A DNA stretch of 64,000 nucleotides from Callorhinchus milii (lineage: Eukaryota), in contig NW_024704742.1 of the NCBI RefSeq assembly GCF_018977255.1, forward strand, positions 52,702,001 through 52,766,000, written 5' to 3'. Positions 2,432-58,160 of this stretch are shown here, piece by piece. Both the position numbers and the translations under genes were made by a program. Below the pieces are notes generated by a model. It was given only the letters and a program-made list of their open reading frames with translations. It ran no database searches and was not told where the DNA came from. Numbering within the stretch: the stretch's first letter is position 1; each line of letters begins with the position of its first letter.

Positions 2432-2743
2432 AATAAATAAATAATCCTTGCATTTGATATAGCGCTTTTCACGTCTTCTTAACATTTCAAAGCGCTTTAC
2501 AGAATAGACTGTAAAGTGAATTGACCGTATATTTGTGGGCGAAACGCGGCAGCCAATTGCGCACAGCAGTGTCCCACAAACAGTCGTAGATTGAAAATGA
2601 CCAATTTATTATTTTTTTTTGGAGGGATTATCATTAGGAGTGTGGAGTAAGGAAACTTGCCCAAGGTTTCGCCCTGCCTGGAACTGAATCCAGGTGTCTC
2701 GCTTGCAAGGTGAGTGCTCTAACCACTGAGTTGCAGGACTACA
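2432..2743 (-). mobile_element. Young SINE (short form)
   Basis: Near-identical to 103-425. Confidence 0.92.
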
Positions 2744-2799
2744 AAATATGCATACAGTTAGAAGGATATGGAAAAACTGACAGAAAAATAGCAGATATG

Positions 2800-25500: not shown

Positions 25501-28500
25501 TCAGCTTTACCTTTGGCGTACAAGGATCCTTTGAAAGATAAACAAATTATTTGTATATAAGCACAGTACATAAATACTAAAGCAACCTGTAAGATAATAT
25601 GGAATAGCTTCCCCAATGCCCTTGTACATAAAGCCACAATCCCATAAAGCACAAGGCTAAACAGATCAGAACATGGCACGTTTGTGCTCAGTTAGCAGTC
25701 TGGGTGCTCTAAGTGGCTTCTGCTATCCGGGGTTAGAGAAGGTAAATCCAGCCAAGACTCCTGTCCTGATGGGTGTCCAGTGACTTGCTCGAATGTGCAA
25801 GTGTGGATCTTTGGTACTAACGGAATCTAGTTCCATGATGATTCTCCCTAAATCGGTTTCTCCTCACTTCAAGGTTTTTTCACACACCTATAATTGATGC
25901 TTGGAAAAGGTACTGGAGGGTGACAGATCCCAACAGTGATATCAAAATCCTACAGTAACTCATTGATGGTGCTCTACTGCTTAAAAGACCAAACACAGGA
26001 CTAAAAATCACATCTTTCCAGATTTTAGATTCACTTTGAAATATTCAGTTGGTTCATTTTAAGATGTCTACAGGCTTTTAGTTTGAGGGAATTGCATGTG
26101 CTCCCAAAATGGTGCTTGTGACCGATGCACCTCCTCAACAAAATTGACCTCCTGCTCTTCAAAATGTTTCCTTTATGCATCCTTCAGCCGTGTGGTAAAT
26201 GAATTAGTTAATTTCCAATTAGTTATACTATTTAAATCAGTTAGTAAAAAATATTTTTGATTTGCTAGCTTAATTTGCCATTGATAGGAAATTACCAGTC
26301 AGGATATAGCAAATATTGTCGCAAAAGATTGGTGGTAAGTTTACATGATGAATCCATAAAATTGCACCAAAATAGCCTTTGTGCCCTTATGAAGGATGAT
26401 TTCAGCCAATATCACTGCAGTATGAGTCACATGGGGCATCATCATATCAGTTTGTTATAGCAGCAGAGCCATCCACCTGATCCAAAGCACAGAATTTGAT
26501 GAGTGTACAAATGTAATTGAAGGTTGAATGTAAGCAGACCTCAGCTTCATTCTAACCCCTGTTTGTCAGTGTAAACAAAGTATAAGGCTTTTATCCATTC
26601 TAAACGGCCTTTGGATCAAACCTCTACTGTTGTGCACATTCCCTGTGTATCAATTAATAATTTAGTGATCTATTCTTCAGCACATTTTGCAGACATAATT
26701 CATTCAGAAGTAACCCACAAAGACACAATGGAAATTACCTTTTCCTAAATGAATTGAGTTTTTATGTTGCTTTTGGGTGCACCGCCTGTGTAAGGATTTT
26801 GCATTGGAGTTCATTGAAGTGAGTACAGTGTAATTGGACCAAGTGTTAACTGACTGACGGCGAGACCTTCACTCACATCCAATGGCTAGGAATCTCTGTC
26901 CCCTCAAAAGAGGATTCTTGCCTCTATTTTCTTCAGGAATCTGGTCATGTTGATATTTAATTATGTTGCTAGCAAATCTTAACTGAACCTTGTTACAAAT
27001 AATCCAGTAAAACTAGAGATTCTATCAATAATTTGCAAACTTTAAAAACCAAACATTTGCCATTTAAAAAAAATTAAAAACTTGCTAAATGCTCAGAGAT
27101 CTATTTGTCCATAATATGAATAGATAAATAAAAGAACTATCAGGATTTGTAGCACAATAATTTGGTTCCTATCATCTCCCTAATTAAAATATGTTTTGTT
27201 TGAAATATGTGGAATCTATAATATACAGAATGCAGAAATGGTGAAAAGATAATTGAGAAGATGGAGGGCAGTAGACATAAATTAAACTAGCTCATTTGGA
27301 AAGAACATATAAAGCATTACCTTTATTTTGTGCAGTTCTTTTCAAGGTATTAAATATACAATTAATGGAATATAATAATCCTTGCTTTTGATTTCACACC
27401 TTTCCCATAAGGAGGACATCTCACAGTTCTTTCCAGAATATTGTACTGTAAAGTGTACGTGACTGTCTATTTTATAGGTGAACATGGCATCCACTTTGCA
27501 CACAGCGAAGTCCCACAAGCAGTCATAAAGTGAATGAACAATTATATTTGGGGAAGTGTTGGCCAGGATACCAAGAGAAACTCTCTTCTCTTTTCAAATA
27601 GTGTTATGGGATGTATAACATCTACCTGAACAGTAGACGGACCTCAGTTTTAATACCTTATCTGCAGCATGGCACCTCTGACAATGCAGCACACTACCAG
27701 CTCTGCACTTGAGCATTACCAACTGACCCAGGCTGACGCACAATATTGACAGAAATCAGGAACTAACTAATGGCCCATAAATGTGTCTCACCGGCTGAAG
27801 GAAATTGTGAGTAGGACTTGATGGAACAAAGTGAAAAAATCTTTCTGTGATATAGTAAATGAAAAAGAACTAGTGAATAGCACATATCAAAAATGCATGC
27901 ATTTTGTCCCAGAATTTTTCAAGCAAAAAATGTTTTGTTTTGTTTTGATGAATTTGAATCATTTTCCTGAAAATATCAAGCAGAACATCAACGGAGGAGT
28001 ACAAGTGGCATAAATGTGCAAAACAAGCATCTTGACCCATATAACATCATCCACAATGAATGCTTTTTCACAAGCTGTTTATTATGTTTTTTAATTTTTA
28101 ATACGCTATCTGTTTAAATTCAGCTTAACTCACTTGCACGGAGTTGAGCACCACCGAGTGCTGTGGTCAGATTTTTACTCATTGGAACGATGCCTGACTT
28201 TACCAGAGATGAATGCTATAGAATAGGATTCTGAATTCAGGCATTGTACTGAAGTGCATGAATTATGTGCACTTTCAATCTACAGCACTCTGAATATTAT
28301 GTTCAATGTATTTATTCACTTTATAGTCATACAACTACATCATTAACTTTGTTTGTTTCCAGCAAAGAATTCATACTTGTTGCACATTTTTATTCAACTG
28401 ATAGCAAATTGCAATAATAAGAAAATAAAAACATAAGAAAAGTCAGCATGAGAAAAGGCTATTCAGCCTACTGGAGCTTATCCCTTCAGTACATTATCTC

Positions 28501-31500
28501 TTCCATCATAGCACCTAATTGTATTTTGAATAACCACAGTTTCTGCTTTCACTGTTCTTGATAGATTATTCCAAACAGTTTGGAATCATTCTTTGAGTAA
28601 AAGCATTTTCCTGTTATCTGTTCTAAATGTACTTTTCTCTCATTTCAATATATATCCCGTCTTCCTTAATTCATACTGCGCTAAATTAAAATAGGTTTCA
28701 CATATCATTAATCAAATTATTAATATGTTCTTGCCTTTTTTGGTTCTTCCTGCTGCCTGTCTTCTTGTCCCTCTTTGCGACCTGCAGATTGGCACAAGCA
28801 AAACAATAGGTATTTTTGGTAAACCAGACTTCCCACAAGAGAGCAAGAAATCTATGTAAACAAGCAGTGGTGCAGCAAAAAGCTTCACCTTTCTGCTTTG
28901 TGCAATACAAGCTGCCAAGGGCAAGGTGCCCTATTTGGCGGGCAGCATAAGCAATATGTTTGTGTTTCACTTCCAGAAACTTTTCTGGAACATAACATTT
29001 CCAGGTTATTGAGGATGAAAGGACCACTCTGGTAATAGATGAAAGGAGACTGGAGAAATTGTGGTTGGGCACATGGAGTCTGTTCAGTGGTTTTGATCCC
29101 ATTTGGTGTCTGAACTAACTCAGTACAGTGTCAAATTTTTGTTGTTATGTTTTTCACACTTATGGTTAGTATCAGGGGAGTGGAGTCTGAGAGGGGCGAG
29201 TTCCCATAACAAAAGAGAGTTCCAAAAACAAGGAGGAGGATGCAAAATAAAGGGGCTAAAGAACCTGGCAGGAAGACTATTTGGGAAGTCTGTTCTAGGA
29301 ACTGGGAGAGATTCAAGACCTTTCAAACGAAGCTGTGAATCAAGACCTTTCAAACGTAGCAGTGAATCAAGATCTGAAGCTACAACACCTCTAACTGTAA
29401 CACTTATTCTTTTTCATTCAAGCATTTGTATCAAAGACACACTATAAAATCTACCATCTCTGTAAATATCTGTGTGTTCCGTTAATTAAAATTCAGTGGA
29501 AAATCACTGACTATTCAGTCTTCAAATCACAGCAGCCTATGAATTAGACCGGAACTGCAAAAAAGTACTCAATCACGTAGCAGTAATATCATCTGCCCAG
29601 ATGCCCAAAATGAGCAAGACAGTGGGTAGAACTTGTCCAAACCCAGGAGACTCAATTTGTGGCACAAGGATCACAGCTTCTCAATGTACATTTCAGTCTA
29701 TTCTACAATGTGTAAAAAGGAATAATGCCGTCATTTTAATCTTCCTGGATTTCAAAAATGTGTTGAAATATAAGGTGATTTTCTTTTTATTCTGAGAGGC
29801 AGTTTGTTGTTCTGAATCTCATGACGGAAATGAAATTATTCCTATTAAATAAAATTCTTCCTCATTGATTTTTGAGTGCACTGGAAATCAATTGGTGCCA
29901 AAGAAAGATGCGCCAGAAAGAAAAGTTCCCATTAAGAGTAACTCTATTAAATAACATCAATCGTAACATCAGATAATTGAGCATTTTGTGTTGCATTGCT
30001 CTTATTGTCAATTTCGTACAGTGAAAAGTACCTTCAGGTAATAACATGGCCACTTGGGTCTTCGCAGCTTCATGACCGAGGTCACGAAAACAGCTTCCCA
30101 TGAGTACAGACGGAGAGGAGGCAGGCATCGTCTATGAGACAATTAACACATCTTGAAATGTCTAAATTCTAAATTACCCTGAAGCCTTTTCTCTTTGACC
30201 GTGCCTTTTTCCCTGGCTCAGCATCAAACTATGCCATTGTTAAGTGCTCTGAGACACTTCCCTGCGTGAAGGGTGCCATATAAATGCATGTTGTGTAAAG
30301 AGATATTTTCACTTTAATTGCTCAAAGATTCACATTTCTTGCATTGCATTTGTAGCAGCTATTAGCTTAGCTTTATGCCATACAGTATTTCATCTTGTTC
30401 CAATTTAGAAAATAAATTGTACGATATAATCAAAACTTCCAAAATAAATTTTCTTAATTATACTAAATAAAACTCAGACAATGGTAGTGTCAAATCAAAC
30501 AATAATTGATTCTGGTGTGAAATCTTGTATCTTTGTAAAATGTCGTGATTCTACAAGTCAACCACAAAATACAGTCACTACACTTTACAATATATTCTGT
30601 GAAGCATTTGAGACAGCTTAATGCTGTGATAAGGCACTATATCAAATCCAACGCTTATTGTTATTATATTTTAAAATTAATGTAATTTCCTAGAATTACC
30701 AATAATAATTATGAAATCATATATGACATCACTCATTGGTAGAGAAAATTATAAAGTAAGAATATATTTAAACAGCAATTTAGGCAAAGAAATGTTAAAA
30801 TGTGATTCTTACTTGCTCAGGGAATAAGTGAGAGGAATTTCCCAGGTGATGAGATATTAAAATTGTTGATGGTTTCCGTTGTGCACACACTCGTATTTGA
30901 TTTGTTTTTGTACCAAACATCTTAAATTTTATGCGCAATTAAAAAATTCTGCTTGAGCTATGTTGGGTGCTCAAGACGTTTCATTAGCGCTCCTCACTGG
31001 TCTCCCTCGTTCCACCATTCACAAGTTGCAACTCATTCAAAACTCATCCTCATCCACAACAAACTCTGTACTCTGCATCTCCCCTGTCCTCACCAGTCTA
31101 TACACGTGTAATTTTGTTGTTGTCTTTCCTAAGCTACTGTTCTTACTGTAGGTCTCAGTTTTCTTTTCTGTTGAGCTCTTGTGGCTTCTTGTCCACCCAT
31201 AAGTGGAAAACGTGGAGAGGTAGCTGGTCCTAGAAAGAAAATGAACTATTTATATTCATGGAATACTATATTTTATATTACTTCCAATAAAATCCAATCA
31301 GTGCTGAATCCTGGCTATCAAAAAATGAATTGTTTTCTTAAAAGAGATTATATTTGCTCTGTTGGAAGTGAGAATTACACATTGAACGGACATAAATGCA
31401 GCATTATAATTCCAAAAGGATTCCAATGTTCCAGAATAACTGCAGTGGCACTGAAATATATTCACAAAAGATAACTCTTGAATGAATTGCACTTGTGTTG

Positions 31501-34500
31501 TGTGCAGTATATTTTCAGAAAATTTACAATATACAATAAACTCCTGATCACTCAACCCTTGCTTAAAGTGTAACTACCACACATGTCAGCATGCAGTCAA
31601 TATCCTGGCCACATTTATTTTTGTATTTATATATATGCCTAGTTCGACATTCAGCCCTTTCGCTTGGAGTGATGAGTTTTCAGGAGTTTATTGTAAAATA
31701 AATATGAAAGAAAATGAAAAATTGTTTGAATCCATAAACACATTTACTAGAGGTTTAAAAATCCTCGAAAGTTGGTTCAATATCCACCTCGAAGGTATGA
31801 ATTGGCAACACTCTCACTTCTCAATCTAAAGGTTGTGAGTTCAAGCCCCATGTCAGGACTTTGAGCTGAGTCAAGGCTGACACGCCAATGCATTGCATTG
31901 TTGGTGTTGCCTTTCTTTAGATGTCACATTAAACCAAGATCTTTTCCCCCTGTTCAGGTGGACATTCAAGATCCCCTTGTGCAACTTCCATCTGGCAAAC
32001 TAGTAATTCAATTGAAATGAGAGGAATTATAGCTCAAAGCAATTAATATTAACGTAAAAAAATTAATTTAGGAAAAGGATAAGAAAAAACACAAGCAACC
32101 AGTCAATGATAGAATTGAAAGCCATGAATGCTATCCTAATAAGTCAGAAAAATATCCTTCACCTTTTGCGATATATTGCGATTTTCACAATCTGTGGGGG
32201 AGAGATTCCATTGAAATTTAGCTTGATTCTATTTATGTAACATTTTAAAGTGGTCCAGAATTTGGCAATTTTTTTTAATTCAGTCTCAACTTGACGTTGG
32301 CTTTTTGTAGTTCTTAAACTTATGGAAAACCAGCTTCAAAATTAACAACAACAAACAACAAATTGCATTTATATAGCACCTTTCATGTCAATAGGATGTC
32401 CCAAGGTGCTGAATAGTCAGGGATTTGAATCCAAGCAAGAAATTAGGATCAGGAGGGATGAATGGTAGGGAGAGTAGGGGTAGGAGGGTGACCGAAGGTG
32501 CAATCGAAGAGGAGGGCCTTGAGACCTCCCTTGAAGAAGGCAAGGGAGGGAGCAAGGCAAAGACACCGTGGGATGGAGTTCCAAAGGGTGGAGGCAGAAA
32601 GGCTGAAATGAAAACTGCAAAATTAAAACTGAATTTGCCAAATTCTGGATGCTCTGAAATGCTACATAAATAGATTAAATCCGGACACTGGTGAAATTCC
32701 ACTCCACTCCCCCCCTCCTCCCCCCACCCCCCACCCACCCTCATTTCATTATTTGTGATAGCTATGACTTCTGCCTACCAAGAATAGGATTAGACTTTTC
32801 ACAGTCAGTAAATCTCACATTCCAAGTAGGAAAGTATTCAACATGTTGAAGGGTTGATTACATAAATAGGGTAAAATTATTTCCACTGAACACTGAATCA
32901 TAAATTTTAGGTCAGCACCAAAAAAAAAGGTTAGATGAATTATTCTGCACAGAGGATTATTAGGGCATAGAGTACCTGAGCTCAATTTCCCTTGGGTGGA
33001 AAGGTTAAGAGAGAGGAAGAATAGAGGGAAGTTAATTCTGCTCTGCAATTGGATTTTCTGAAACTTCTTGACAATCTACACAGTAAGTTTCAACAGGATC
33101 CATAGAATCGCAAATGTTTGCCCAAGCAGATAAAATTGGTGGTTCATAAAGTTACCTTCAACTACACTTAGTGGAGTCTAATTGATGGAAAGAATGATTG
33201 GCTGTAATTTGCAGAAATGAGGGCACCTGTCATTTCCTCTGTACACATATTTTGCTCAACTCACAAATTAGCCCCTACTGAGTCATTCAGGGCAGAGTGA
33301 GCTAGCTACAGTACAATGTGCAGTCGAAGATAGTCTAGATGTCAACCAATTTCGTTGAACTGCTAGCAGCATTCAGTGTAGGCAGGATAAATAAAGATTG
33401 AAATGACTAAATTTCTCCTGAAAGGTTGCCTTGTTTCAGTCATCTTTGGTGTTCAATCAAGACTGAGACCAGTTGATCTCAGTAGCCAGCTACCAGAACT
33501 GTTACTATACTACTTTATTCCAATTGGTACACTATGATTCACACCATGGATGAAGATCACAAAATCATTCCATAATCCTTCTCTTAAAATCCTTCAGAAC
33601 ATGTGGCACAGTGAATACCAGAAGTGTGTGGCACATATCACACAGATCTGTCATATGTTCTCAGGGTAGCAACAACTTGCATTTATATTGCACCCTTCCA
33701 TGTTCTATCAGCTTGTCTGGCAGACATCAAAGCTTGGATGTTTGTAAATTTCCTTCAGCTGAATAAGGACAAGACAGAAGCCATACTCCTTGGCTCCTAT
33801 CCATGTCTTCACTCCTGCAGTTCTAAACTCCTCAACCTCCCTGGGCTCTCCCTCAGACTCATCGAACCAGTGTGGAACCTGGGCATCCGGTTCAACCACC
33901 AGTTGTCCTTCCTCTCCCACAACTGGTCCCTGACCAGGACTGCCTTCTTCCATCTTCACCACATTGCCCGCCTCTGACCGTACATTACCACAAATGCAAC
34001 CGAAACCCTCGTGCATGCATTAGTCACCTCCCGCTTGGATTACTCCAACGCACTTCTCGCCAGTCTCCCCAGCTCCACTATTCATAAGATCCAACTCATT
34101 CAGAACTCTGCTGCCCACATTCTGACCTGGACCAAACTCCGTACCCACATCTCACCAGTTCTGGCCAGGCTCCACTGGTTCCCCATCACCGAACCGATCG
34201 ACTTCAAGATCCTCACACTCATGTTCAAATCCATTCACTCCCTGGCACATCCCTCCCTCTCCAACCTCCTCACTTCCCAATCCACCATCCGCTCGACTGG
34301 CACTGGCCTCCTACTTGTATTCTCGAACCCTCCGCCCCACCATTAGAGGTTGTGCTTTCAGCCACTACACTACAAAACTCTGGAACACTCTCCCTCAATC
34401 CCTCCTGCTTGCCCCCTCACTCCCCTGTTTCAAGTCCCGCCTGAAGACTTTCCTGTTCGACCGTGCTTACGGCCATCTGCCGCCTCCCCCTGGCTCAGAG

Positions 34501-37500
34501 TCAGGCTCCACCACTTTTAAGCGCTCTGAGACGCTATCCTGCATGGAGAGTGCTATATAAGTATACGTTATTGTTGTTGTTCCAAAGTTCCTTTAGCATA
34601 GTGGCTGAAAGCAAGGCTGTGATAGGGTAGTACTGAACTATACAGCCTCAGTTCAATCTATGTATTTAAATGCCCTCTATTGTAGTGCATATTGACAGCT
34701 ACATATCATTTTATATTTCTTTAGCAAACATTTAAAACACGGAGTCACCAGTGAAAGTTTCAGTCTTCCACATACCCAAGTCTTGTATTACATTTCAAAC
34801 CTCCTCCAAGGAAGGACTCTGAGCAGATATTGTGTCGATCGGGAACTGCTGAGAACAAAATAAAGACTTATGTGCTCAGCACAAACTCCCTGTACATATA
34901 ATCAATCAAAATTCTTTTTTTGTTTCAGTAAATGATTCCAGCCAGTGCAGGCGCACGTATTTCTAACATGTGTGCAATCAAATGCACTGAGGAAACCAGG
35001 AGTGTTACAAAAGACCTTGTTCTTACAAGATAATAGAGATAACTAATTACTCGACTCTCCAATACAGCCAAATTAAATCAATATAGTTACCCACCGATGC
35101 CTATTTCAAAACCAGTATGGTGTAAGGGAACACAGTAGCACAGATATAAAAAAACGGTTGCGAAGGCAGATCGTAAACTTTACTAACGTTTGACTCATTG
35201 TCTAAATTTGTCGCAGTTTCCAAATATAAATGTAGAGCGACCCCTTTAAGTTTTTAAAAAATGTTTTATTGGTGAGCGAGGTTAGGACTGCTCACCCCCA
35301 TGAACCCAATTATATCCAATCACGTTCCATTAGGGAATGAGCATTGTCCTGGCAGACAAGCCCCAATCCTCCCCAAAGGCTCATTTAGACCATCAAGCTT
35401 CCTTATCAATTCACTCTATCATATACTCTCCAAAATTGTCAAAGGACAACTCGGCTCTGATGCCCGCCTTCACGACCACCCAAGCAAGTTCAGGTGACCG
35501 GCTCTCCTCTCTGGCAGTACAAACCCAGCCTGAGCCTAGTGACCAAGTGCTTTGTATTCCAGTATCTCTGCTTCATCTTTGTGAGAGCAGATCAAACTCC
35601 TCAGATTGGAAGTAATATCGATCCCAACCAGGCACAGGAGCAGCTTGGTGCTCAGTAGTGCAATTCTTCCCATAAGAACCCTTATGTTATGGGTAAGATT
35701 CAGTCACGGCAGCATATCACAAGCAAATCTCAACAGGAGAACATTTCTGGTAGGTGCCAGAAGGAGTAACTGATAAAAACGCATGCTACACTTGACCCTA
35801 GCCAAAAGGCAGAGAAGCGATCACCTTTATAATGTGATCATTGGAATTCAATATATTAGAGTCTGTCTTATAAAGAAGAATGATAAAGTACATGGATACC
35901 AGTGTTAATGTCACTTCCTGTGAGTTGAACGCCTGAACAATAGTATGCATTCGCAGCACACAGGAAGTGACGTTAGCGGTGACCTGATGACATGGAGATC
36001 AGTCATTTTTTCACAGTGACAGGATTTTGAGTGGCATGATTTGGATTTTCAGGTAAAATAATTATTGCCATTATAGCAAGGCATATTCTAATGAAGAGCT
36101 GGCACATCTGGAAATACATTATATATTTTAATAAATTATTTTTGGTGTTCTTTGCATTTCCCCAAGTATTGCTATAAGGACTACAATCTATTCTTAACCT
36201 GTCCTTCCCACTCCTAATATGCAGTATATACATACATACATGTATATATATGTATATATACACACATACACAAACACACACACACACACACACACAGAGT
36301 TAACATTAAGGGAAATGCGGTGCAAATTTCCCTGGCCAACTCCAATAAATAGAATAATTTAGAGGAAATAGAGTGTAGAAATAATTTTAAAACTCATATA
36401 CATTTCTTTAAAATTATTAAGCCAAAAAAGTGTGTGGAAAGCAAAGTCTTAGGTTGAACAATAATAAAAAGGCAGAGCTTCCTAATAAAAATAATAAAAA
36501 AAGAGTTTATAAAACAATTGAAAATTACTGTGCACACGATTGCAAAAAAAGAGCAGAGTCTATGTTATACAGAGACTGCCTGTGTGTCCAGTGCTCAATC
36601 CTTTGGGTATCAGTAGCGTTAATTAGTTAGTAGTATAGTGCTGCGCTTGAAATATTGTCCAATTTACCATTTAAATTTTAAACACTCTGCAATTTGTGTT
36701 ACTATATTGCAATACATCAGAGTACTCTCAAGGTAGAATTAAAGTTATACGCTCTCTTCGGTTTCTCCTATTGCTTATCCAGCAAAATTTGCATTTGTTA
36801 AGATTTTATAGAGGTCTGATCCAGTCATTATTATTCAGCGTGTATATTGCTTTTAAAAATAGTGTCTTCATGGTGATTACATTATATGGCTGTATTCCAG
36901 AAAGGCAGGTTGAAATTTTAAACTAAATTTCACTTTCTTTGTATTCTCATACTTTAAATATTAATTGAATTTTCATCTGCTGTCAGTCCCATATGATTCT
37001 AAGCTCCATGGGCTGGCCACTTGTCTGCATGTATGATTCCTGTTTACATCCAGTAATGATGTCAGAATGTTTTATTGCTGTAATATTAATATCATAGTAT
37101 CAATCTAAAATGACACTGCAGTGCAGTGCTGGGAGAGTGCTGCATTGTCAGAGGTGCTATCCTTTCAGGGAGATGTTAAACCTAGGTCCAGTCTGCTTGT
37201 TCAGGTGGACGTTAAATGTCCCACACCACTATTCAAAAGGAGAAGGGAATTTCTCCTAATGTCCTGGCCAACAATCCACCCAATATAAAATTAGTCAATC
37301 ACTTCATTGCTGCTTGTGGACATGCTGTGTGCAAATTGGCTGATGAGTTCGCCTACAGATACACAGTCACTGCACTTTACAGTAAATCCTGCGACGTGCA
37401 TGGAAACATAGGAACATAGGAACAGGAGAAGGCCATTCAGCCCCTCGAGCCTGCCCCGCCATTCAATTAGATCATGGCTAATCTTACCTAACTCCAAATG

Positions 37501-40500
37501 TTTTTTCCAAATGAGACATTTCAACCATACGATAAGACACTATATTAAATGCAAGACTTGTTAAACTACTACAATATAGTGTTCAGGCTCTAGTTCTGTC
37601 TTTTTATAACTTTGGCCTATTCTTTCTACCTTTTCCTAGTCTTTAAGGCAGTATATCGCCGTCAGCATTCCAACACACTTCACCATGAATCCAACTAAAA
37701 AAAAAAATTCTGAAATACTATGAGGGGAGGAACATAACTAATGATCTGATAATTAAGGTGACACTTGCCACATGGACAAAAAATTTGTTCAAAAATAGTC
37801 TTTTGAACCCACCCATCCCCACCCCATCTGAATTCTAAATATTCACTGCTGTCATCTTTATGTTTAGCCAGTTGCCATTGATGCCAATCACGGGTTCATA
37901 TTTCAATCTGTTCCATAACAGACTGGTTTAGAATGACTAGTTGTTTCTTTCATCTCATTCTGATAAATAGGAAGTTTCTCACGGTCTCCGGTGTTCTGGC
38001 CAACAATCCCTCAAAAAAAATTGTTCCCTTTATGGCTGTTTGTGGGAAATTGCTGTGCACAAATTAGCTGATGTGCTCACCCACAAAAAACATAAAGTAA
38101 CACCACATTATGGTACATCTTGTAGAGCACTTTGAGACGGCTCGATAACCCGATAAGGCACTATATCAAATGCAAGGATAATAATAAATTTCCACCCCAC
38201 CAGGCTCTTACTTTGCAACAATGGTCCTTTGCATTTCATTTTCTCCTCCGAAAGGCTACGTGAGGGAACATCCTTCAGGATGACTACATCCTTTTGTGCT
38301 GATCGCTGAGCCCAGTCCTCTCTCTGTCGGCCCATCCTCAGATTTGTGACAATGTCACATCGGCCCTGATAAGGTATGAACAGCAAACAATTAAATAATG
38401 GTAATGCTCAATAAGATGAGACCATCAGTGAAAGCTACCTCTTCTTACTATCTATCTTTCAGAATAGCCTCAAAAATTATAAAAATCTGTAGAATCATAG
38501 AATTGTACAGCACATAGGAGAGCACTTGACCCTTGTACCCGTGCTTGCTCTCTCCTCTGCCCTTTTCCCACATGCTTTTGAATTTTGTGGAAATGCATGA
38601 GTGTGTTATTCTCATAAGTATCTGATATTGCTTGACACTGTTGGGAGGGTCAAAATCCTGGTAGGCAAACATTGTTAATCACAGTTAATAGCTTTTTTGT
38701 ACTACTTCAGATATACTCAGCTATTCCAGCGGAGGCACTTATCTTCCCAAACACTATTCAGCAAGTATGAACTACACAAAGGGGAGAAGTTTTTAAAGCC
38801 TGGAGCACAGAATTATCTATTCCATCAGAAACCAGCATGGTAAGCTATGTGGTTTTAGCTAGTTGAATTCCAGCAGTATTCCAACACACAGGGTCCGTAA
38901 GCCTTGGTTTTTGCCAACCTCTGCCTAATACTCTCCAGAATTTGGTAACCAGGATGCATCCCTCTGGAGAAACATTCAAAACATGGAAATTTTCATGGAA
39001 TTTTGTGAAGCACTGAGACCCTCCTGACATGAAAGGTTTTATATCAATGATTATTTGTATTATTATTTGAAGGTATAATAATAGAGACAGGGATAAACAT
39101 TCCATTGTCATTGAACTGTGAAGGTGGTTTCCTGCTATCCTATCCAAATCTATATGATTTCTGAAGTTTGATTTCAGGCATTTAGAAGAGCTGGTCTGGG
39201 ATTAAAGCACATGAGTGTGTATTGTATCAAGGCAGGTTTTCTTAAAGTGGCTTCTTGCAGAAGAGTTTCAAGAAACAGTAATATTTCTCTAGATTGTCAA
39301 AATCCTCCCGATGTGAAAGGTGCTATATAAGTATAACAACAACAACTATAAATTGGTATAAAGCATAGCAAATCTGAACTAACATCCTATAATGCAATAT
39401 ACACATGCACACACTTTAATGTTAATGGATCTGAACAAGCATAAGCGCTCTGAGACGCTACCCTGTTTGGAGGCAGCTATGTAAGTGCAAGTTGTTGTTG
39501 TAAGGACAAATGCACTGGTGTGTATAGCCCTGATAAGAATATGTGGTAATATAGTTACAAAGGTCCTATTAAGAACACAAAGGCAAAATACACATGGATT
39601 AATTGTTATTATGGCAATGAAGACTGCAGTAATGTTGCAAGCCTATGGAAGTTCATATAGTACTTACCGATTTGACAACCACGATGAAAGAAGAGTTGTG
39701 GCTTTCAGGAATGACTGCTGTTCCTGATCTGTGAGAGAGACCGAAACGTGACTGCACAAACTGTGCAGGAAATAATGATGTACAACTAATTTCCAGATTC
39801 TCTGTGGGTAAAATTGTTTTTATTGACTGTGCAGTTGAAATTAATTCTGTAGCTGCCGCTCAGAGAAGGATAATGACCCCCTTCTCCACATAAGAGGGCT
39901 GAGGGATTGCTGTGCTATACTGTGTCATGCTGTCAAGCCACACACTGTTTCCTGCACCTTTACGTGTGTGGGAAACAGGTATTTGATGATATACAATATT
40001 TCACGTTCTTGCCTGTAATAATCAATAAACTGCATCTCCGAAGTGACTATCTTTCAGCCATTCTGCCCTCACTCTCTGGAACTACATCCTTGAATCTCTC
40101 TGATTTGCCCGACCAACCCCATCTTCAAAGCCCATCCATAGCTCATTCTAACTCTTTGATCATGCTTTTGGTCATCCCCCACTACACCACTACACTCTTC
40201 AGTTTACCAAGCCCACCCCACCCGCTTTCCGCCTCCTCACTCCGGCTAAGGTGCTCAGTCAGTTGGATAAAGCACTTTGAGACATCCTCCAATTTGAAAG
40301 GCACTAAAATTGTGTTGTATTATTGTATCTGTCACATGAATGTAAGCTAAAAAATGAAATTCCTGTCATTATTATTATCCGTGTTATGTCCTATCCTGTC
40401 TGTATTTTGGGCACGCATTCTGAATATAGTACTATTTCAGATTTATACATTCCATAATCTGGTAATAAAGATGCTGTTCACAGCCCCTAGCATTTTTCAC

Positions 40501-43500
40501 GTCTGATCTCATTTTTTCTAATGTTCTCCTTTCTTGATGCTAATAAATCACACAGGGAGCAGCCGTACTCCAGTACTGCACCCAAATTGTCCATTCTTCA
40601 TGCATAGGCTAGACATTGAGTGTTTGAAGGGTATTGAACCGTGGGGAGAGGTTAATCAGACCCAAGCTTATTCCTGTGCTCACCCAATACTTGCACAGAC
40701 ACACATTCCAGCAGGAATCACTGAATTCCTACTCCAGTGGCCTCAGGTCAATTGTAGCACTCCAACTTCTGCCCTAGTTCAGCACATTACCAATGATTTC
40801 TTGGAAAATCACAGGTTTTTGTCTGGCCAAAATCCATGTTTTGTTGTCTATGTTCAGAAATAATTAAAAATGTATTATTTACCTTCAACTGTTAAAATGG
40901 CTGAACCGTGGTGCAGAGACACTACAGAAGGAAGGGTGAAAATGAAGAAACAAGAGAAACAGGAAGGAAAAGGAAAAGGAAAAGGGGAAATAAACATGAA
41001 ATGGAGTGAAAACAGAAAGAGGAAAATGAACCAGCAGAGAAACCAGAGCAGAAATAGGAATTGAACAGGAAGAGGCGGTGGAAAGGGAACACGAATCTAC
41101 AGGAAGAGGAAAAGAAAGGAAGAAGAGAAGGAAGAAGACAATAAACAACAACAGCAACAACTTGCAATTATATAGCGCCCCTAAACATTTGCATGGACCC
41201 AGTTTATTACAATAAAGAGCTAAAGATGCTTCTAACCTGTAATGTCGCAGCAAACAACTGTGGGAAAGAAGCAGGAGCTTTTCCAGGGACCAAGGGGTGA
41301 ATATTGGGAGGGACCTGCCAGGAACATTGAATTAAAATCAAATGAATATTTACATACACTGCAGTTAATCTTTTAAGACTTGATAAATGTTTTACTGTGT
41401 CAACAAACTTGTTCAGTTTTATTTCCTACTCCTTCCTATATTATAAGAATTGCTAATAGGTATATACAGCATATGGGAAAATTGGTCCTGTGATACTATC
41501 ATCAGTGATATAATATGTGGGTGCATGGATTTTTATTGCAATATGCGATTATTGCTAAATGTCTTGTAATTCCAATATTTATGGATACCAGCACAAAATA
41601 AACAACAGTAATTTGAGTTTACTATTTATTCTATCTATTAGGAAAGCACACCCTGATAACCTACACCAGATTTGTGCAGTTACTATCATAGAAAAGTGTA
41701 CTGCAATTGTCTGCACTGATTATCTTGCATTGTACTGCACTGAAAAAGAAAAAGGCACTTAAACTAGAGAAATTTAAAGAAACAAAAAGATTTTTCAGCT
41801 CCTAATAGCTTCAGTCAGGTTTCGAATCAATGTTGAAATAATATAACAAGATTATAACTTTTTAAAAGTTTGTTCCAATATTATTCCAGAAAATATTGTT
41901 ATTTATTTTCTGTGCATTTCCTGAATTTTACTTGATATAATAATAATCCTTGCATTTGAAATAACCCCTTATCACATTGTTGAGACATCGCAAAGCATTT
42001 CATAGGATTTTACTGTGAAATATAGTGAAGTAACTGCACTTAGTTCATCAGCTATTCTTTTGAACACAAGATTTGTGTGCTGTATTTTGAAAACTGAGAT
42101 TTTTCCACTGCTGCAGGGAAAAATAGGCTTGCTATTTAATCAGATTTTCTCAAGGACACATGTAAAGGATATATGTTAATCATGCCTCAAGATTTGATCA
42201 ATTCTGCATTTCTGAAATTTGGGGAGGTTTGTCCATTCAAGTCTATCGGCAGCCTGGCTCAGTTGATAGCAATCTCATGTCTGAGTGAGAAGGTTGCAAG
42301 TTCAAGGCCGATATCAAGACTTGGAACTCATATAGTCTAAACAGACCAATACAGTGCTAGGGGCCATGCTGCATTGTTAGAGGTGCCATTCTTTAGATGA
42401 GACATTAAACCAACATCTTTGCCTGTCAAGCGGATACTAAAGGTCCCATGGTACTATCTGAAAAGAGAAGGGAGTTTTTTCAGGGGTTCTGGCCAACAAT
42501 TCCCCAAATAAAATTGGTCACTCACTTCACAGCTGTTTTTGGGTTGTTGCTGTGCACAAATTAGATGCTGTGTTCATCAACAAAACACAGTCACTGCACT
42601 TTACAGTAAATCCTGTGAAGCACTTTGAGATGTCCTCCTGACGCTGAAAGGCACCTTATCAAATGTAAGGGTTAAAAGTCTTCTGGTATAAATCTAAAAT
42701 GTCATGATTTTGGCTAACCAATATTAATCTGCTTCCGAAGGACTGTCTTAAATTTTTGGAAACACGGTGTAACTTCTCTTTGCTCAAGCCATTTCCAAGC
42801 ACCCTCTTGTGGATAAAAAATAAAAATCACGCTGTAAACACAGTGAGAACCAATGTATAAACTCTATGTGGCACCTGTTATAAAGAAAGAGAATAGTAAA
42901 GGGTGTGGGGAGGCAGAGGAGACTGTGATTACCTAGACAGTTCCTATGTTGAAAACCACCAAATATGATGTGATTAGTCAAATGGCTTGTCCTTTTGCTG
43001 TTTCATTCTATGAATGTATGTTATTAATCAATAACAACAAGATTACATTTGTATAGCGCTTTTCATGTTGGGAGACGTCCCAAGGAGCTGAAACATACTT
43101 TCCATAAAATCCAATTGACAAAACGGGTCACGTAGAGCAGTATAATCCACTCTAAACTTCATCCCTTTCTCTGGGTTCATTACTTTCCATGGACTAAGTG
43201 CTAGTGACTGGGAGCCAAGAACGAGAATAGAAATATCCATTTTGTATGGCCAAGTGCCCTTCATGTTCACAGGAATAAACCCAGGTTGACAATTGGAATA
43301 GTTTTGGAAATTGCAATTAGCTATTTTGCAAAATCACAAATTGGACAGCTCCAGGTACAGTATTTGCAAATGGAAGTCACAACTAACTGCATGAGTTCTG
43401 TTTTCGCATATCACAAATCAGATCTCAGAGCTACACAAATGCTGTCCCTTTTGAGACATTTTGAGACACCAATGATCCCATAGGAAATTGTCCATGTGAC

Positions 43501-46500
43501 CTTCACTCCCACAACAGATGAAGGTGCTACCCATAGCCTGATATATTAGCTCCTCATAGCATTGGCAGCACATGACTGGTTCCAATTCACCCTTTTAGGA
43601 ACCTTTCACTGCTTAGTGCTAAATCCTCAATCCGTCTGTTAGAAAGTGATGCACTTGTGCTTCCATTTCATCTGCTAAGAAAGGGGCCAACACCATTGAC
43701 ACCAGAATTGGTTCCCTCGTGACTTGTCTATTTCCATAGCCTTTCAGATTTCCACTTCCCTTTGGATCCGAAATATCAAGTGAACAACACTTCTTTTTGT
43801 AAAATATTGATGTTACATTGTATTTCATTGCCATCTAGTGGTCATAAATGTATTGTTGTCTAAGTGCGTTTCAAAATATTTTCATTTCTTCACTACTACC
43901 ATCTCATTATAAATGTACTTTATTTCTGCTTTTATGGGGAAGCTCTGGGGTGCCATTTTCTTGATTCTGATCCTAAGAAATAGAGGTGGTGAAGGATCCT
44001 ATTCCCTTATCTCCCAAACTGTTCATACTCCCACTATATCTGTCGATTGCTTTGACTTTTACCCTATATGAAAAACACTTTAAAAGTCCAAATTGTGCTG
44101 TTGATGTGGCCACTAGGCAATGAACAAGACCAGATTAGATGACTCGCCTTGTCTCCTTTCCTATTTGTGGTATGTACCTTCACTCATGCCTTTTGCCAAC
44201 ACACAAGCAATTATTGGAAACTAAACGTTGAGGCTTACAGGGTGAACCCATGTACCACCATTCTGTGTTCCCACACATGATGCCTGCTGCACTAAAACTT
44301 TGCAGGATAGTAATGTCCCACAAACAGTCATCAAGTGAATGATCATTTTTTGGTCTCCGAGGGATTGTTGGCCTGAACACCAAGAGAAACTTTCTTTTCT
44401 TTTTGAATAATGCCAGGAGATCTTTAACACCCACCTGATGTTAAAGACATCCAGGGAGACAAACCCTGGTTTAATGTCTCATCCCATGAACAGCACCTCT
44501 AACAACTCAGTGCTCCCCACAGGACTGTCAGCCTAGTATGTGTGCTTAAACTATTGCTTGTATAGGAAAACAAGCAGTCATTTTATGCACAGCAAGGTCC
44601 CATAAAAGCAGATAAGATAACTCAGAATTATCAACTCATCAATGGCTGGACGCATCGTCAAAGAGGTAGACCCTTCAGGTAGGAATTGAGAGAGGAGAGG
44701 GATTTTGGGAGGCAGTTCCAGAGGTAAAGCACAAAGTCTCTGAACCAGCACCAAAGGTATAGTAGTGAGAGTGAGGCATGAAACAAGCTAAAGTTAGTAG
44801 AGTGGAAGGAGTGGATAGTAGAGTAAGGTAACAGACAATCACAGAGATAGGACGATGCAGAGATTTGGAAGTGAGAACAAGGACCTTAAGGATCTCCATT
44901 AAGGGATAAGCAGCCAGTGAAGCCAGGTGAGCCAGGTGAGGATTCACGTGAAGGGCTCACAGAGAGGATATGGGCGGCAGAGTTCTGTATGACCTGGAGT
45001 TTGTGGAGAATGGAGCTGTTTCACAGGATACACTGGAAAGTGTAATGACTGTGCCTTCTATAGCCACACATGGCAGCCAAATTTCCCACAGCACCAAATT
45101 GTGATCAGGAGCACAAAACATGGTGCTGAGGCCTATTGGCACTCCAGTTCAATCTTCAATTTTTCGATTGTCATTTGCTTAATAAAAATGTCAAAGACTT
45201 TTAAACTGCATGAATTGTTGGCTATGTCGTCAATGTAAATAAGTAATGATTTCATTTAGCAAGGTGCACAAGTAGCAAGTGCCAAGCTGGACAAATTCAA
45301 GGCCTTTGGTTAGAATAATGCTTAACAATAATCCTTGCATTTGATATAGCGCCTTATCACATCGTCAAGATGTCTCAAAGCACTTCACAGAATATGCTGT
45401 AAAGTGAATTGACTATATTTTGTAGGCAAAATGTGGCAGCCAATTGTGCAAAGCAGTGTCCCACAAGCAGTCGTGGATGGAGTGATTTATTTATTCGTTT
45501 TACTTAAAGCAGTTGACTGCACATTGTCATTCATTTCTCTCTTACACAAATTTACATTCTGGTATCTGCAGATTTTTCAATAATATTTTAAGATAATGAA
45601 GGTGTCACCTTGTATCAGTTGGTACCACTCACAACTCTAGACCAGAAGATCTGTTGTTTGTTTATGTTGTAGGAATAATGTTTTACAGTACCTCAATAAA
45701 TCAATGACTCCGTTGTATCGTTGCTGAAGAAATTTGCCCAATGTAGATCCAAAATCCTGAGAATTAAAATCAATAGAATGTAGTTAAAAACATAGCTCTA
45801 CCAATAGTGTAAAAAAAATCAGCAGACGACATAAGTGTGCCAGCCTCATTTAGTTAGCAGCACTCTTACCTCTGAGTCAGAAGGTTGTGGGTTCAAGCCC
45901 CAACAACAAGATTTAGAATCCATCTAGTCTATCCTGACACTCCAATCCAGTGTTGGGGGAGTGCTGCATTTTTGGCAGTGCAGTCCTTCCGATGAAATAT
46001 TAAACTGAGGTATCATTTGCCTGTCCAAATGGATGTTAAAGAACCCATGGCATCATTCAAAAAGAGAAGTGAGTTTCTCCCGGTATCTCAGTCAACAATC
46101 ACCCAAATAAAATTGGTCACTCACTCCATGGCTGTTTGTGCAACACTGCTGTACAGAAATTGGCTGATGCAGTCGCCCACAAAATACACAGTACATCACT
46201 TTTCAGTATATCTTGTGAAGTGCTTTGAGACGTCTCAATGACAGGATGAGGTACTATATCAAATGCAACGATTATTATTATAAATATCATGGTGTACAGT
46301 GATTGTACCATCTCTCTCCCTATCCTTAGCCCCTCACTGGCTACCTGTGAATCTCACAAAAGAATTGTCTTTCTCTTCAAGGCTATTATAATACACAATG
46401 ATTTTTGAATGCTTTTTTGTTGGTTATTTTACTCACAATTTTCCACATTAGGATATATTTAACAGGAAAAGGCCTTAAACATCTACCTTGGATGCTGAAC

Positions 46501-49500
46501 CTCATCAGGGAGTTGGCAGGAATTTGACATTTAATATGACACCTAATATGAATATGAATTTAAGCATAAAACTGAGGAGCTAACTTTCAGCTTCAAAAAC
46601 TGGGTTTGAAAACCACAGCTGCTTCCACAAGAAACCTGTTCTACAGTATTACAAGGTGCTTTCCATGCTTGTTTATAGGGAAGTGGAAAAGTGATTCAAA
46701 TTCGGAGAGAAATTTTTATAACTGTCAACCCAATCCAAAATGGTTGGATTACTGCATTTGCATCAGTTCTGGGTAACTACACCCATTCATTGTTATAACC
46801 TGGCAAGTAGGTTCTTGTAATCGGCACCTTTGGTATTGCTCATGACCTTGACACTAAGAGATTAACAATTGTGGTGTTAGTGCTGCACATTCAGCTCAAA
46901 AATAACTTGCCTTTAATTAGTGGGAAATTCCATAGCCTGATTATATTAAAAGGATAGAATTGGTAGAACATACAGTAGGTTAGCGTGACCTGTGGAATAC
47001 TTTACAGAGAGGAACAATACAGTACAGATTTACATTTGTGTAGCCCCTTTCATGTGGGGGGTGGGGGAGAGTCTCAAAGCACTTAACAGAATTGCTGGTT
47101 ACCCGAGCTTTGGTTGCTTCAGTGGCCTCACTCGCCTGGATTAGAGAGAGGTAAGATAAACCAGGATTCCTACTCCTGAGTGCCTGAGTGAACCCTGCTG
47201 GAAAGGTAATTTGTGAATGAGTGTCAGGATTCAATTGGGATGTCATGCTCATGGTTTTTCTGGATTCATAGGCTTCTGACACATATTTTCCAGCTTCATA
47301 TTTAAAGAATAATTACTAAGCCAAGATAATGGAGCAACTTATATGTCAGGATGCATCAACATCTTCAGGAGAGGAGGAAAGGATACCGGAGGACAAAACT
47401 ATCTAAATGTCCTTATACTTGTTTAGTCAATAATGTTTTCCATTGTTACTATATGTATCCAGGAAACCAAACAATATCTTATATCTCGATAGCGTGGAGT
47501 ACCCTGTAAAATGTCAAACTCCGGTTCAGATACTGAATACTTTTTCAGTTAAGTAAACTTTAATGGTTCAGTAATATTACTCTAGAGTAATAGTGACACA
47601 TAGTACAATGCTTATGGATAATTGCCAACTCTGGTAACCATAGCTCCCCTACTCAAACACATACCTCCTTGTTTATCAGTAAGAGCTCCACATCAGTCTT
47701 GCAGACAATGGTAGCAGGACGCTTTTTGTTGGTCAGAAGAGTAGCTTCCTGAAAAATATAAATTTGGGAAAGTTGAAACAGTCAGTGGCAACATGAAAGA
47801 ACATTAAACCGACTCTGGCTCTTAGTAAAATTGTGAAGCAGAAATGGAGCTCACCCCAAACAAATCACCTTCCTCAATTTCATGCAGAAATTCTGTTAGG
47901 GGGCTTCCAACTTTGGCAGAGATTTCATTTGATTTTGCTGCCATTTTACCAGTAAGTACAAAATAACACGATTCAGGTTGGTGGCCTTCACGCACAATGA
48001 CTGTTTGTGTTTCATATCTAAAATTAAGGGAAAGTACATTGAATAATTAAGTTACGCATTTGGAGTCTCTGATTTCTCCCCATCTCCAATAACTGGTGAA
48101 GTGTCTGTAGGGAAATACATGAACACACAAATTTACATTTTATAACTATAAAATGTAGAAGACACCAATAATATGATCTGTTTGATTATTTGACTATACA
48201 CAGGGACATAGTCATATGCAGAATTGGGAAAGACCATTTCCAATTACTGAGTTAAGCTGCTATCTATGAAATATCACTGAAATACCACTCTTCGCAGTCG
48301 GCAAAAACAATGGTGCTTAATAGTAGCATGAAAAATGAGCATGATGAAACTCTCTAACCAGCTTCAAACTCAAACACTGTACCAAATTTGGGGTGAGTTG
48401 GGGATCAGTCTTTAACAGTTGTTTTTAAACACATTTGTTGTGATCGCATCAAATCTGTATGAGTCAAATTGAGTTTGCTGTACTTTGTTCTCACACCCAT
48501 AAACAATCCTTGCATTTGATGCAACGCCTTATCACATCTTTGAGAGGTCTCAAAGCGCTTCACAGAATATACTGTGAAGTGAATTGACTGTATATTTTGT
48601 GGACGAAACGCGGTGGCCAATCGCGCACAGCAGTGTGCCACAAATAGTCGTGGATTGAAGTGACCTTTTTTTNGAGGGGATTATTACACCTGGAAAAGCG
48701 ATCCGCCAATCAACTAACAACTGGGTTCCTAGTTACTGCAAGTAAACAGAGGAGTCTGGAGTAAGGAAATTTGCCCAACATTTCAGCCGGAAATCAAACC
48801 CTGGTCCTCTTGCTTGCGAGGCGAGTGATCTAACTACTAAGCTACAGGACTCCAAATTCAAGTTTTGCTCTCAAAGAACAGATTTAACAATAATCAAAGA
48901 ACATGTGACCTATTGCAATTGGCAGATGCATTGTTGATTAAACTATTTCTGCATGTTGTTTCACTTACTGTTGGTACACTGCAGCTTGGCAAACCTCCAA
49001 CTGAACATTATGGGGTAGGACTTGAAAAGTTTGGTTCTTGCGTAAGAGTGATTGTATCTTTAAAACAAAAGATGTTAAAATAACAATATTTTGAATTAGA
49101 ACCAGGCAATAAAATATTTACAGTACATAATCACAGCTACCAAAGCGACAAATAAAGACACACGCAGAGCTCCAGTCTCTTTGCTATAGTTGTGCTGACT
49201 ATTTTAATGGAGAAAGATAGTTGAAGGACACAGGGTTAGAGTGCAAACGTTGAAAGGTAGGGTAGGGCGAGGCCATGGAGGGCTTTGTAGGTTAAAAAGA
49301 GAGACACTGAATCGAAAATAATGCAAAGACAACTAATGACAGAGCACATATATGATTAAACGTTAACTGATATTTGTATCAGTAAAATATCTAGAGTTTG
49401 TACAGACAGTTAAAGAAATGGTTAAAAATAATGAATAAATCTCATTCACCATTAACTCAATCAATATTACCATTAAAAGTTGCATCCTGATAACAGTGAA

Positions 49501-57838: not shown

Positions 57839-58160
57839 TAATAATAATATTAATCCTTGCATTTGATATAGCACTTTTCACGTCTTCTAGACGTCCCAAA
57901 GCGCTTCACAGAATACACTGTAAAGTGAATTGACTGTATATTTGTGGGCGAACGCAGCAGCCAATTGCGCACAGCAATGTCTCACAAACAGTCATGGATT
58001 GAAAATGACCAATTTATTATTGTTTTGTTTTTTTGGAGGGATTATTATTAGGCTCTGTGTGGAGTAAGGAAACTTACCCAAGGTTTTGCCCTGCCTGGAA
58101 TTGAACTCACATCTCTCACTTGCAAAACGAGTGCTCTAACCACTGAGCTACAGGACTCCA
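57839..58160 (-). mobile_element. Young SINE (short form)
   Basis: Near-identical to 50453-50790. Confidence 0.92.

What the first reader, a model, noticed from the sequence alone, without database searches (positions are those of the whole stretch)
35251..35821. U2 snRNA-headed retroelement with a 3' hairpin and AATAAA (SINEU-like) inside an intron
Seen: it begins exactly at U2 nt 1, matches 47/54 nt, switches to about 500 bp of non-U2 sequence and ends in a GGTGAGC..GCTCACC hairpin (35296-35271), AATAAA and an A-rich end; weak TSD c(c/a)ccttta. Known: U1/U2-headed SINEU families are described from crocodilians, and Keno (Tx1) and Utopia LINEs target U2 near nt 37-38, whereas this junction is at about nt 54. 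Inference: an independent snRNA-headed SINE family or a U2/LINE template-switch chimera. It is sense to the host gene, so its AATAAA could truncate transcripts after the functional CNB-A domain.
Basis: partly seen in the sequence, partly recalled or inferred. Interest (0 to 1): 0.7.

Follow-up and report, generated by a model that had tools for sequence, protein, structure and literature searches.

The report
U2 snRNA-headed retroposon family outside crocodilians
This is one decayed copy of a multicopy repeat, likely in a chimaera (cartilaginous fish) genome, that starts with the first 54 bases of the spliceosome's U2 RNA, carries a second U2 piece in its sister copies and ends in a hairpin, a poly(A) signal and an A-rich tail; it likely spread as a passenger of LINE retrotransposons, a design that the papers searched describe only from crocodilians.

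Summary
Minus strand 35821-35768 is U2 nt 1-54 (47/54; E 7e-11 in the window). Hairpin, AATAAA, A-rich end and a weak TSD are as described, in a sense intron of a cNMP-binding-domain gene. No genome was held, so copies were read from contigs of four public runs. 30-42 other contigs per genome run match the body. About 20 end at the same AATAAA with unrelated flanks. Several join body to U2 head, and one spans the same junction. New: sister copies carry a second U2 block, stem-loop IV (18/19 or 17/19 to U2 nt 158-176; chance maximum 16), with two stem pairs changed on both sides; this copy lost 5 nt of it. So the body is not wholly non-U2. No LINE protein was found in it. Best reading: a SINEU-like non-autonomous retroposon family moved by a poly(A)-priming L1/Tx1-type LINE (0.7). 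A junction at nt 54 does not exclude a Keno/Utopia origin. Intronic polyadenylation has no support. Repbase and Dfam could not be searched. New variant of a known kind; interest 0.55.

The parts
35768..35821 (-). U2 snRNA-derived head, U2 nt 1-54 (47/54). T4 at nt 15-18 and T5 at nt 43-47 would stop Pol III.
   Evidence: sequence
35717..35767 (-). Post-junction block shared with other copies; small hairpin right after the junction (z -2.5, 5 of 200 shuffles)
   Evidence: 35751 T>C in 5 X1, 3 X4, 2 X7, 1 X5 contigs; X7 record 31 spans 35717-35808
35631..35716 (-). Spacer. 35631-35700 is matched by no other contig at 80%; it is not significantly U2-like.
   Evidence: table 2
35604..35625 (-). 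Second U2-derived block (stem-loop IV, U2 nt about 156-176). Intact in sister copies; a 5-nt deletion between 35615 and 35614 removes the loop core in this copy.
   Evidence: table 7 (12 X1, 13 X4, 5 X7, 1 X5 contigs)
35297..35603 (-). Non-U2 body of unknown origin. Most often matched at 35491-35614; no LINE protein found; indels among copies are not multiples of three.
35271..35296 (-). 3' hairpin (9 bp), the most often matched part of the 3' end
   Evidence: tables 2-3
35250..35270 (-). AATAAA (35270-35265) and A-rich tail; the common 3' end of the family
   Evidence: table 7 (loose ends before 35264: 21 X1, 19 X4, 7 X7 contigs; agreement 0.45-0.48)
35236..35248 (-). 3' copy of the target-site duplication; its last 5 nt equal U2 nt 2-6 (microhomology)
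35816..35829 (-). 5' copy of the target-site duplication, overlapping the first 6 nt of the head
34849..38211 (-). Host intron of a cNMP-binding-domain gene (CNBD1/2-like; name inferred)

Best explanation
It is one decayed copy of a multicopy repeat family that has a U2 nt 1-54 head, a second U2 block (stem-loop IV) in sister copies, a non-U2 body and a hairpin-AATAAA-poly(A) end, and it likely spread as a non-autonomous passenger RNA copied by the reverse transcriptase of a poly(A)-priming L1/Tx1-type LINE. Shown: the anatomy, the many copies, the common 3' end with unrelated flanks, and head-body linkage in a few other copies. Inferred: (1) One or a few master loci were likely transcribed by Pol II. 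There is no tRNA, 5S or 7SL head, and T-runs in the head would stop Pol III. Starts at U2 nt 1-3 suggest an upstream U2-type promoter at a U2 locus, with read-through to the AATAAA. (2) The RNA was likely polyadenylated just behind the hairpin. (3) A LINE ORF2 protein likely nicked A/T-rich DNA, primed on the poly(A), and joined the 5' end through the short U2-like microhomology in the target, leaving the TSD. (4) Daughter copies would lack the external promoter and be dead on arrival. (5) Stem-loop IV would have bound U2B''/U2A' (or U1A) in the master RNA; two stem pairs changed on both sides suggest selection, but this is untested. This copy has lost the loop and is probably inert.
For: Head. 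Copies: other letters at 35586 in 42 X1 and 40 X4 contigs, and at 35302 in 31 and 33. Most laid records are under 90% alike (140 of 241 in X1, 132 of 231 in X4; these totals include the separate repeat at 35946-36015). Common 3' end: 21 X1 and 19 X4 contigs leave at 35264 into A-rich then unrelated sequence (agreement 0.45, 0.46). Head-body linkage: 6 of the 15 joint rows shown (10 hidden) join 35551-35616 to 35718-35793 (6 X1 and 4 X4 contigs); 3 of the 6 rows reach into the U2 head. X7 record 31 spans the junction (35717-35808, 14 differences, 3 gaps). Second U2 block: the first 11 letters of the loose-end consensus behind 35614 plus the 8 adjoining window letters match U2 L023 nt 158-176 at 11/11 + 7/8 (X1, X7; one letter fewer in X4). 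The best 19-column match in 594 random 520-nt window stretches was 16. No coding signal: Pfam found nothing credible in 6 of 6 frames; phmmer on one sense frame gave 1 hit, an unrelated S-layer repeat protein; a word search on a second sense frame gave 0 of 2422 candidates; difference positions show no codon phase (8/6/5 of 19). The architecture parallels SINEU-1 and SINEU-3 (PMC4494074).
Against: Only a handful of contigs lie on the head (depth 43 at 35771-35805 against 435-773 at the body peaks and 8 on the flank), so a fixed head for the whole family is not shown. 5' truncation, divergence, or the tool's silent removal of human-like (U2) contigs could each cause this. Two of the three head-reaching joints start at U2 nt 29 and 36 with short sides (26, 35 letters), so they do not prove the same junction. 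Contigs are not loci and depth is no copy number. The stem-loop IV reading rests on a tool consensus (agreement 0.66-0.77) and was found post hoc; the spacer between the two U2 blocks is not significantly U2-like. The internal block is matched more often than the 3' end, which a single 5'-truncating family does not predict. The TSD is weak. The third sense frame was tested with Pfam only. No partner LINE was identified; the L1/Tx1 assignment is inferred from the poly(A) end and by analogy with SINEU.
Confidence: 0.7

Rival explanations
1. The body is the 3' end (or an internally deleted form) of an autonomous Tx1/Keno- or Utopia-type LINE. The U2 head is either the 5' flank of an insertion in a U2 gene (nt 1-38 plus a 16-nt TSD) carried along in a co-transcript, or is added repeatedly by template switching.
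For: Reptile Utopia TSDs are 20 bp and 3' flanks start at U2 nt 39, as for Keno. Some crocodilian Tx1 families have U1/U2 heads. Turtle Utopia ends show AATAAA, a T-run and then AAA, like this copy's tail. 17 of 58 metagenome U2 loci leave U2 after about nt 36-55 by a crude rule (what follows was not identified). Few contigs carry the head.
Against: No LINE protein was found. The 3' flanks are heterogeneous and not U2 nt 39 onward (table 7, though U2-bearing contigs may be filtered out). Contigs that keep the post-junction block mostly continue into U2 (depth 52 then 43). A second U2 block inside the body, in U2's own order, is not what independent chimeras give.
Confidence: 0.15
2. The copies are processed pseudogenes of a divergent U2 variant gene whose 3'-extended read-through transcript was polyadenylated about 340 nt downstream. 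They would not be a self-propagating retroposon lineage.
For: Both U2 blocks lie in U2 order, the start is at nt 1, and stem-loop IV keeps its pairing through double changes. T-runs argue for Pol II.
Against: The middle shows no significant U2 similarity (1 of 18 tests at 10 of 500 shuffles, the rest 63 or more). No clear Sm site by eye. Indels shared by 2-3 contigs suggest subfamilies (table 4).
Confidence: 0.12
3. A one-off truncated U2 pseudogene happens to abut an unrelated repeat.
For: Tailless U2 retropseudogenes are common in vertebrates (PMC5322556 passages).
Against: Other contigs join head and body, and one spans the same junction. One TSD brackets the whole unit.
Confidence: 0.03

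Closest known systems
SINEU-1 and SINEU-3 of crocodilians (Kojima 2015, PMC4494074; parts 1-4 of 5 of the text read, figures and supplements not available)
   Same: U2-derived 5' head, poly(A) end, no internal Pol III promoter, T-runs in the head. A 3' body with no identified LINE source (SINEU-1). Two separate U2 fragments in U2 order (SINEU-3: 5' 32 bp plus 83 bp).
   Different: Likely a holocephalan, not a crocodilian. Head is U2 1-54 and the second block is only stem-loop IV. Length is 571 nt against under 500 for SINEU (except SINEU-1D). Tens of copies seen against about 140-7,700. No Mariner target seen at this copy. Sequence homology to SINEU could not be tested.
Keno (Tx1 clade) and Utopia, LINEs that target U2 genes (PMC4640811 sections 6 and 8 and supplement 1 parts 4, 5, 6, 8 of 8; PMC6136364 passages)
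   Same: U2 5' sequence sits directly upstream of the element; a TSD can extend it past nt 38; AATAAA near the 3' end.
   Different: They are autonomous and followed by U2 nt 39 onward or a TCTG-like remnant. Here there is no ORF, and the 3' flanks are unrelated A/T-rich DNA.
U1/U2-headed Tx1-Mar LINEs such as Tx1-11_Crp (PMC4494074)
   Same: U2 head on a non-LTR element that inserts outside U2 genes.
   Different: Those encode proteins; this unit is 571 nt with no detectable ORF remnant.
snRNA/LINE template-switch chimeras and tailless U2 retropseudogenes (PMC4494074 discussion; PMC5322556 passages; PMC4476161 search listing only)
   Same: 5' piece of an snRNA starting at nt 1, flanked by a TSD.
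   Different: Those are one-off events. Here the head-body arrangement recurs and the body holds further U2 sequence.

Membership tests
SINEU (Kojima 2015) | 5' head derived from U1 or U2 snRNA | tested here: met
   U2 nt 1-54, 47/54, E 7e-11
SINEU (Kojima 2015) | 3' poly(A) tail | tested here: met
   AATAAA followed by A-rich sequence in this copy and in 21 X1 / 19 X4 contigs
SINEU (Kojima 2015) | Multicopy unit with shared structure, not a sum of independent chimeras | tested here: inconclusive
   Body multicopy; head-body linkage in 6 X1 and 4 X4 contigs and one junction-spanning X7 contig; fraction of headed copies unknown
SINEU (Kojima 2015) | No internal Pol III promoter head; oligo-T inside | tested here: met
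   No tRNA, 5S or 7SL match at E up to 5; T4 and T5 in the head. A/B boxes were not scanned separately.
SINEU-1 | No LINE in the genome shares the 3' end | not testable with these tools
   No genome held; no LINE protein in the body
SINEU-1/-2/-3 | Sequence homology to the crocodilian consensus sequences | not testable with these tools
   Figures and supplements not readable; no Repbase or Dfam
SINEU-1/-2/-3 | Preference for Mariner-N4_AMi-like targets | tested here: inconclusive
   Both flanks of this copy are at single-copy depth; other 3' flanks agree poorly, 0.45; flanks were not read one by one
SINEU-1/-2/-3 | Crocodilian host | tested here: not met
   tRNA-Ala-headed SINE sharing its tail with an L2, as described for a holocephalan; organism inferred, not sequence-typed
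Keno / Utopia | 3' end followed by U2 nt 39 onward | tested here: not met
   This copy's 3' flank is not U2; loose ends of sister copies are not U2 (U2-bearing contigs may be filtered)
Keno / Utopia | Encodes RT and endonuclease | tested here: not met
   571 nt, stops in all frames
Tailless U2 retropseudogene | 3'-truncated U2 directly followed by the TSD | tested here: not met
   The second TSD copy lies about 520 nt past the U2 break, behind body and tail

The most novel reading that the evidence does not exclude
A vertebrate retroposon that was selected to keep U2's protein-binding stem-loop IV, so that its RNA recruited U2 snRNP proteins (U2B''/U2A', or U1A) for stability, trafficking or control of its own poly(A) site, launched from a U2-promoter master locus. 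In the boldest form it shares deep ancestry with the crocodilian SINEU-1/Tx1-Mar ends (one 13-nt match of the hairpin's 5' arm to an alligator flank). That would make snRNA-headed retroposons an old gnathostome class and not a crocodilian oddity.
Probability: 0.15. Interest if true: 0.78.

Novelty: new variant of a known kind. Interest (0 to 1): 0.55.

Why it matters
PMC4494074 states that no SINEU family was detected outside crocodilians and leaves open how such elements are transcribed. A second lineage, likely in a slow-evolving holocephalan genome, would show that snRNA-headed passengers arise repeatedly or are ancient. It also offers a direct test of the transcription question: find the master copy and look for a U2-type promoter upstream. 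A U2 protein-binding loop kept through paired stem changes would be a concrete lead to why U2 pieces are retained. The effect on the host gene is probably nil.

Tried and rejected
No whole genome was held, so the genome-wide BLAST could not be run; the body is single-copy within the window. Whole divergent U2 or duplicated nt 39-54 model for the spacer: not significant (local alignments). A second loop-like 10-mer near 35666: 8/10 only; dropped. Tx1 ORF2 C-terminus in the body (a recalled resemblance): no Pfam hit in 6 of 6 frames apart from a chance Tissue_fac at E 0.083; phmmer gave 1 hit, an S-layer protein whose three repeats sum to the score, rejected as chance; word search 0 of 2422. A language-model look-alike search of the body was not obtained. 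Whole-element folding is not unusual (z -1.66). snoRNA and miRNA matches at E 0.3-6.6 were taken as chance. The element body gave only short chance hits (E 0.34 or worse) in the 58 metagenome U2 loci; their records could not be extended. Expression: no RNA holder listed. Run X7 is only guessed to be RNA; it holds one contig identical to this copy (35442-35597), and contigs cannot show ends or levels, so this is not used as evidence. No empty-site joint among the 15 joint rows shown (10 hidden); both junctions are present in X1 and X4. A host-gene protein search found nothing (3 candidates, none at E 0.001). 12 of 14 candidate exons or ORFs had no cNMP-binding hit, so 'CNB-B' and 'functional CNB-A' are inferred. 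The alligator-flank match occurs once in 152,514 characters of supplement and may be chance. Not-in-print claim: searches listed no snRNA-headed retroposon from cartilaginous fish; subscription journals, Repbase Reports and Dfam were not searchable. Supplements of PMC4494074 and PMC5499810 could not be read and bear on homology to SINEU and on the host species.

Full report
Setting. The window is vertebrate DNA rich in L2 fragments and a tRNA-Ala(TGC)-headed SINE whose tail matches the L2 3' end. That fits the description of the holocephalan CmiSINEs (PMC5499810, passages). Genome-run contigs total about 0.89 Gb, against 0.77-1 Gb quoted for the elephant shark (PMC5381603, passages). The organism is therefore inferred, not typed by sequence. 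The host gene runs on the minus strand. Exons 48017-47855 and 47748-47665 match Pfam cNMP_binding (E 4.4e-5 and 4e-4, fragments below the cut-off; 2 of 14 pieces tested). A downstream chain of five AG/GT exons (39760 to 28134) is open for 179 codons. The element lies sense in the intron 38211-34849. The name CNBD1/2-like is my inference; exons between 47665 and 39760 were not resolved.

Observation. The head is real: U2 nt 1-54, 47/54, the only U2 hit in the window at E 7e-11 (Rfam 38.3 bits, E 6.4e-6). The U2 references came from a scan of metagenome contigs (58 loci; 33 full-length by the rule; L023 and L031 confirmed by Rfam). The hairpin beats shuffles when cut tightly (8 of 1000; 0 of 200) but not in 86 nt (z -1.6). 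The strict TSD is weak (2615 of 20000 random pairs do as well). Counting the first six head letters gives 12 of 14 columns (326 of 20000), so the target resembled U2's 5' end over five letters, a likely 5' microhomology.

Copies. I laid contigs of 4 of the 24 listed runs on 35001-36050 at 80% likeness. The flanks sit at depth 6-8. The element shows peaks at 35281-35315 and 35491-35614, and 35631-35700 has no other contig. The tool warns that depth is no copy number, so I rely on contig counts. Other letters appear at 35586 in 42 (X1) and 40 (X4) contigs, and at 35302 in 31 and 33. 21 and 19 contigs end at the AATAAA and go on into A-rich, then unrelated DNA (agreement 0.45, 0.46). Haplotypes and contig breaks can inflate these counts, so 'tens of loci' is the safe statement; most are under 90% alike. 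Six of the 15 joint rows shown (10 hidden) link the body to the head side, and three of them reach into the U2 head (35761, 35786, 35793; sides 30, 35, 26 letters). X7 record 31 is another copy that spans the junction (35717-35808, 14 differences, 3 gaps). Against a fixed head: few contigs lie on it. The tool drops human-like contigs without notice, and U2 is such a sequence, so the share of headed copies is unknown.

A second U2 block. Contigs that stop matching behind 35614 (12 in X1, 13 in X4, 5 in X7, 1 in X5) continue with five letters that this copy lacks and then rejoin its sequence. I checked the table's position convention at 35312, 35490 and 35551. On the sense strand the sister copies read like U2 stem-loop IV: 11/11 plus 7/8 against L023 nt 158-176 for the X1 and X7 consensus, and one letter fewer for X4. 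The best 19-column match of 594 random 520-nt window stretches to U2 nt 55-190 was 16, and this copy's own body gives 14. The 10-letter core occurs in 9 of 58 loci. L023 folds this stretch as a 5-bp stem with a 13-nt loop. By eye, the sister-copy consensus keeps the 13-nt loop, changes two stem pairs on both sides and gains a sixth pair. This is a post hoc reading of a tool consensus (agreement 0.66-0.77), not a covariation test. Stem-loop IV is the U2B'' site, and U1A binds similar loops and can inhibit polyadenylation (PMC9977717, passages). The spacer between the two blocks is not significantly U2-like.

The body is not a recognisable LINE remnant. Pfam on six frames, phmmer on one sense frame (one hit, an S-layer repeat protein, rejected) and a word search on a second found no LINE protein. 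The third sense frame had Pfam only. Differences among copies show no codon phase, and shared indels of 1, 2 and 5 nt occur. A purely untranslated LINE tail cannot be excluded.

Mechanism. Best reading (0.7): a non-autonomous retroposon with a U2-derived front, transcribed by Pol II from one or a few master loci, polyadenylated behind the hairpin, and copied by an L1/Tx1-type LINE through target-primed reverse transcription. The anatomy, multiplicity, common 3' end and some head-body linkage are shown. Promoter, polymerase, partner LINE and the role of stem-loop IV are inferred. Rivals: the remains of a Keno/Utopia/Tx1 LINE with a U2 flank or repeated template switches (0.15); retrocopies of a read-through U2 variant (0.12); a chance neighbour (0.03). 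Intronic polyadenylation has no support: 16 sense AATAAA lie in 28216-47664, and one is upstream in the same intron.

Comparison and novelty. It works like SINEU (PMC4494074, parts 1-4 of 5 read). It cannot be filed in SINEU-1, -2 or -3: the host is not a crocodilian, and homology could not be tested. It fails the Keno/Utopia tests (no ORF, no U2 3' flank). Nine literature searches listed no such element from cartilaginous fish. The SINEU paper says none was found outside crocodilians, and a 2017 review mentions snRNA-headed SINEs only for crocodilians in the passages seen. PMC5786205 and PMC7245038 were seen as passages only. The 2004 Keno paper was not read; it is known here only through PMC6136364. 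Repbase and Dfam were out of reach, and I put the chance that the family is already named there at about one in three (judgement). Verdict: new variant of a known kind, interest 0.55.

Noticed in passing
window 35906-36015: A separate small repeat just upstream of the element: a 22-nt inverted repeat (35906-35927 / 35954-35975) with many contigs laid at 35946-36015; MITE-like, unclassified.
   Followed up: no
L005, L006, L007, L017, L018, L025, L028, L035, L038, L041, L042, L045, L046, L048, L050, L052, L057: 17 of 58 metagenome U2 loci are 5' fragments that switch to other sequence after about nt 36-55. Several share related downstream sequence and look like 5' ends of U2-targeting elements; not identified.
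   Followed up: partly
PMC4640811 supplement 1, row AKHW01000780 (alligator), against window 35300-35288: The flank of an alligator Utopia copy ends in 13 letters identical to the 5' arm of this element's 3' hairpin. It occurs once in the supplements; chance, or a related crocodilian 3' end.
   Followed up: partly
window 35378-35430: Some sister copies have only 10-14 letters here (table 5c), so this copy carries about 40 extra nt. Part of it recalls a CR1 3' motif (recalled, untested).
   Followed up: no
window 351-422, 1562-1641, 50716-50787, 58086-58157: The four Rfam tRNA hits are heads of the tRNA-Ala SINE, not tRNA genes.
   Followed up: partly
L023 219-411 and 787-900: A U2 gene and a U5 gene lie about 375 nt apart on the same strand.
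   Followed up: no
window 56780-28134 (minus): The host cNMP-binding-domain gene found no relative in the protein word search; it may be a fast-evolving or unannotated CNBD-type gene.
   Followed up: partly
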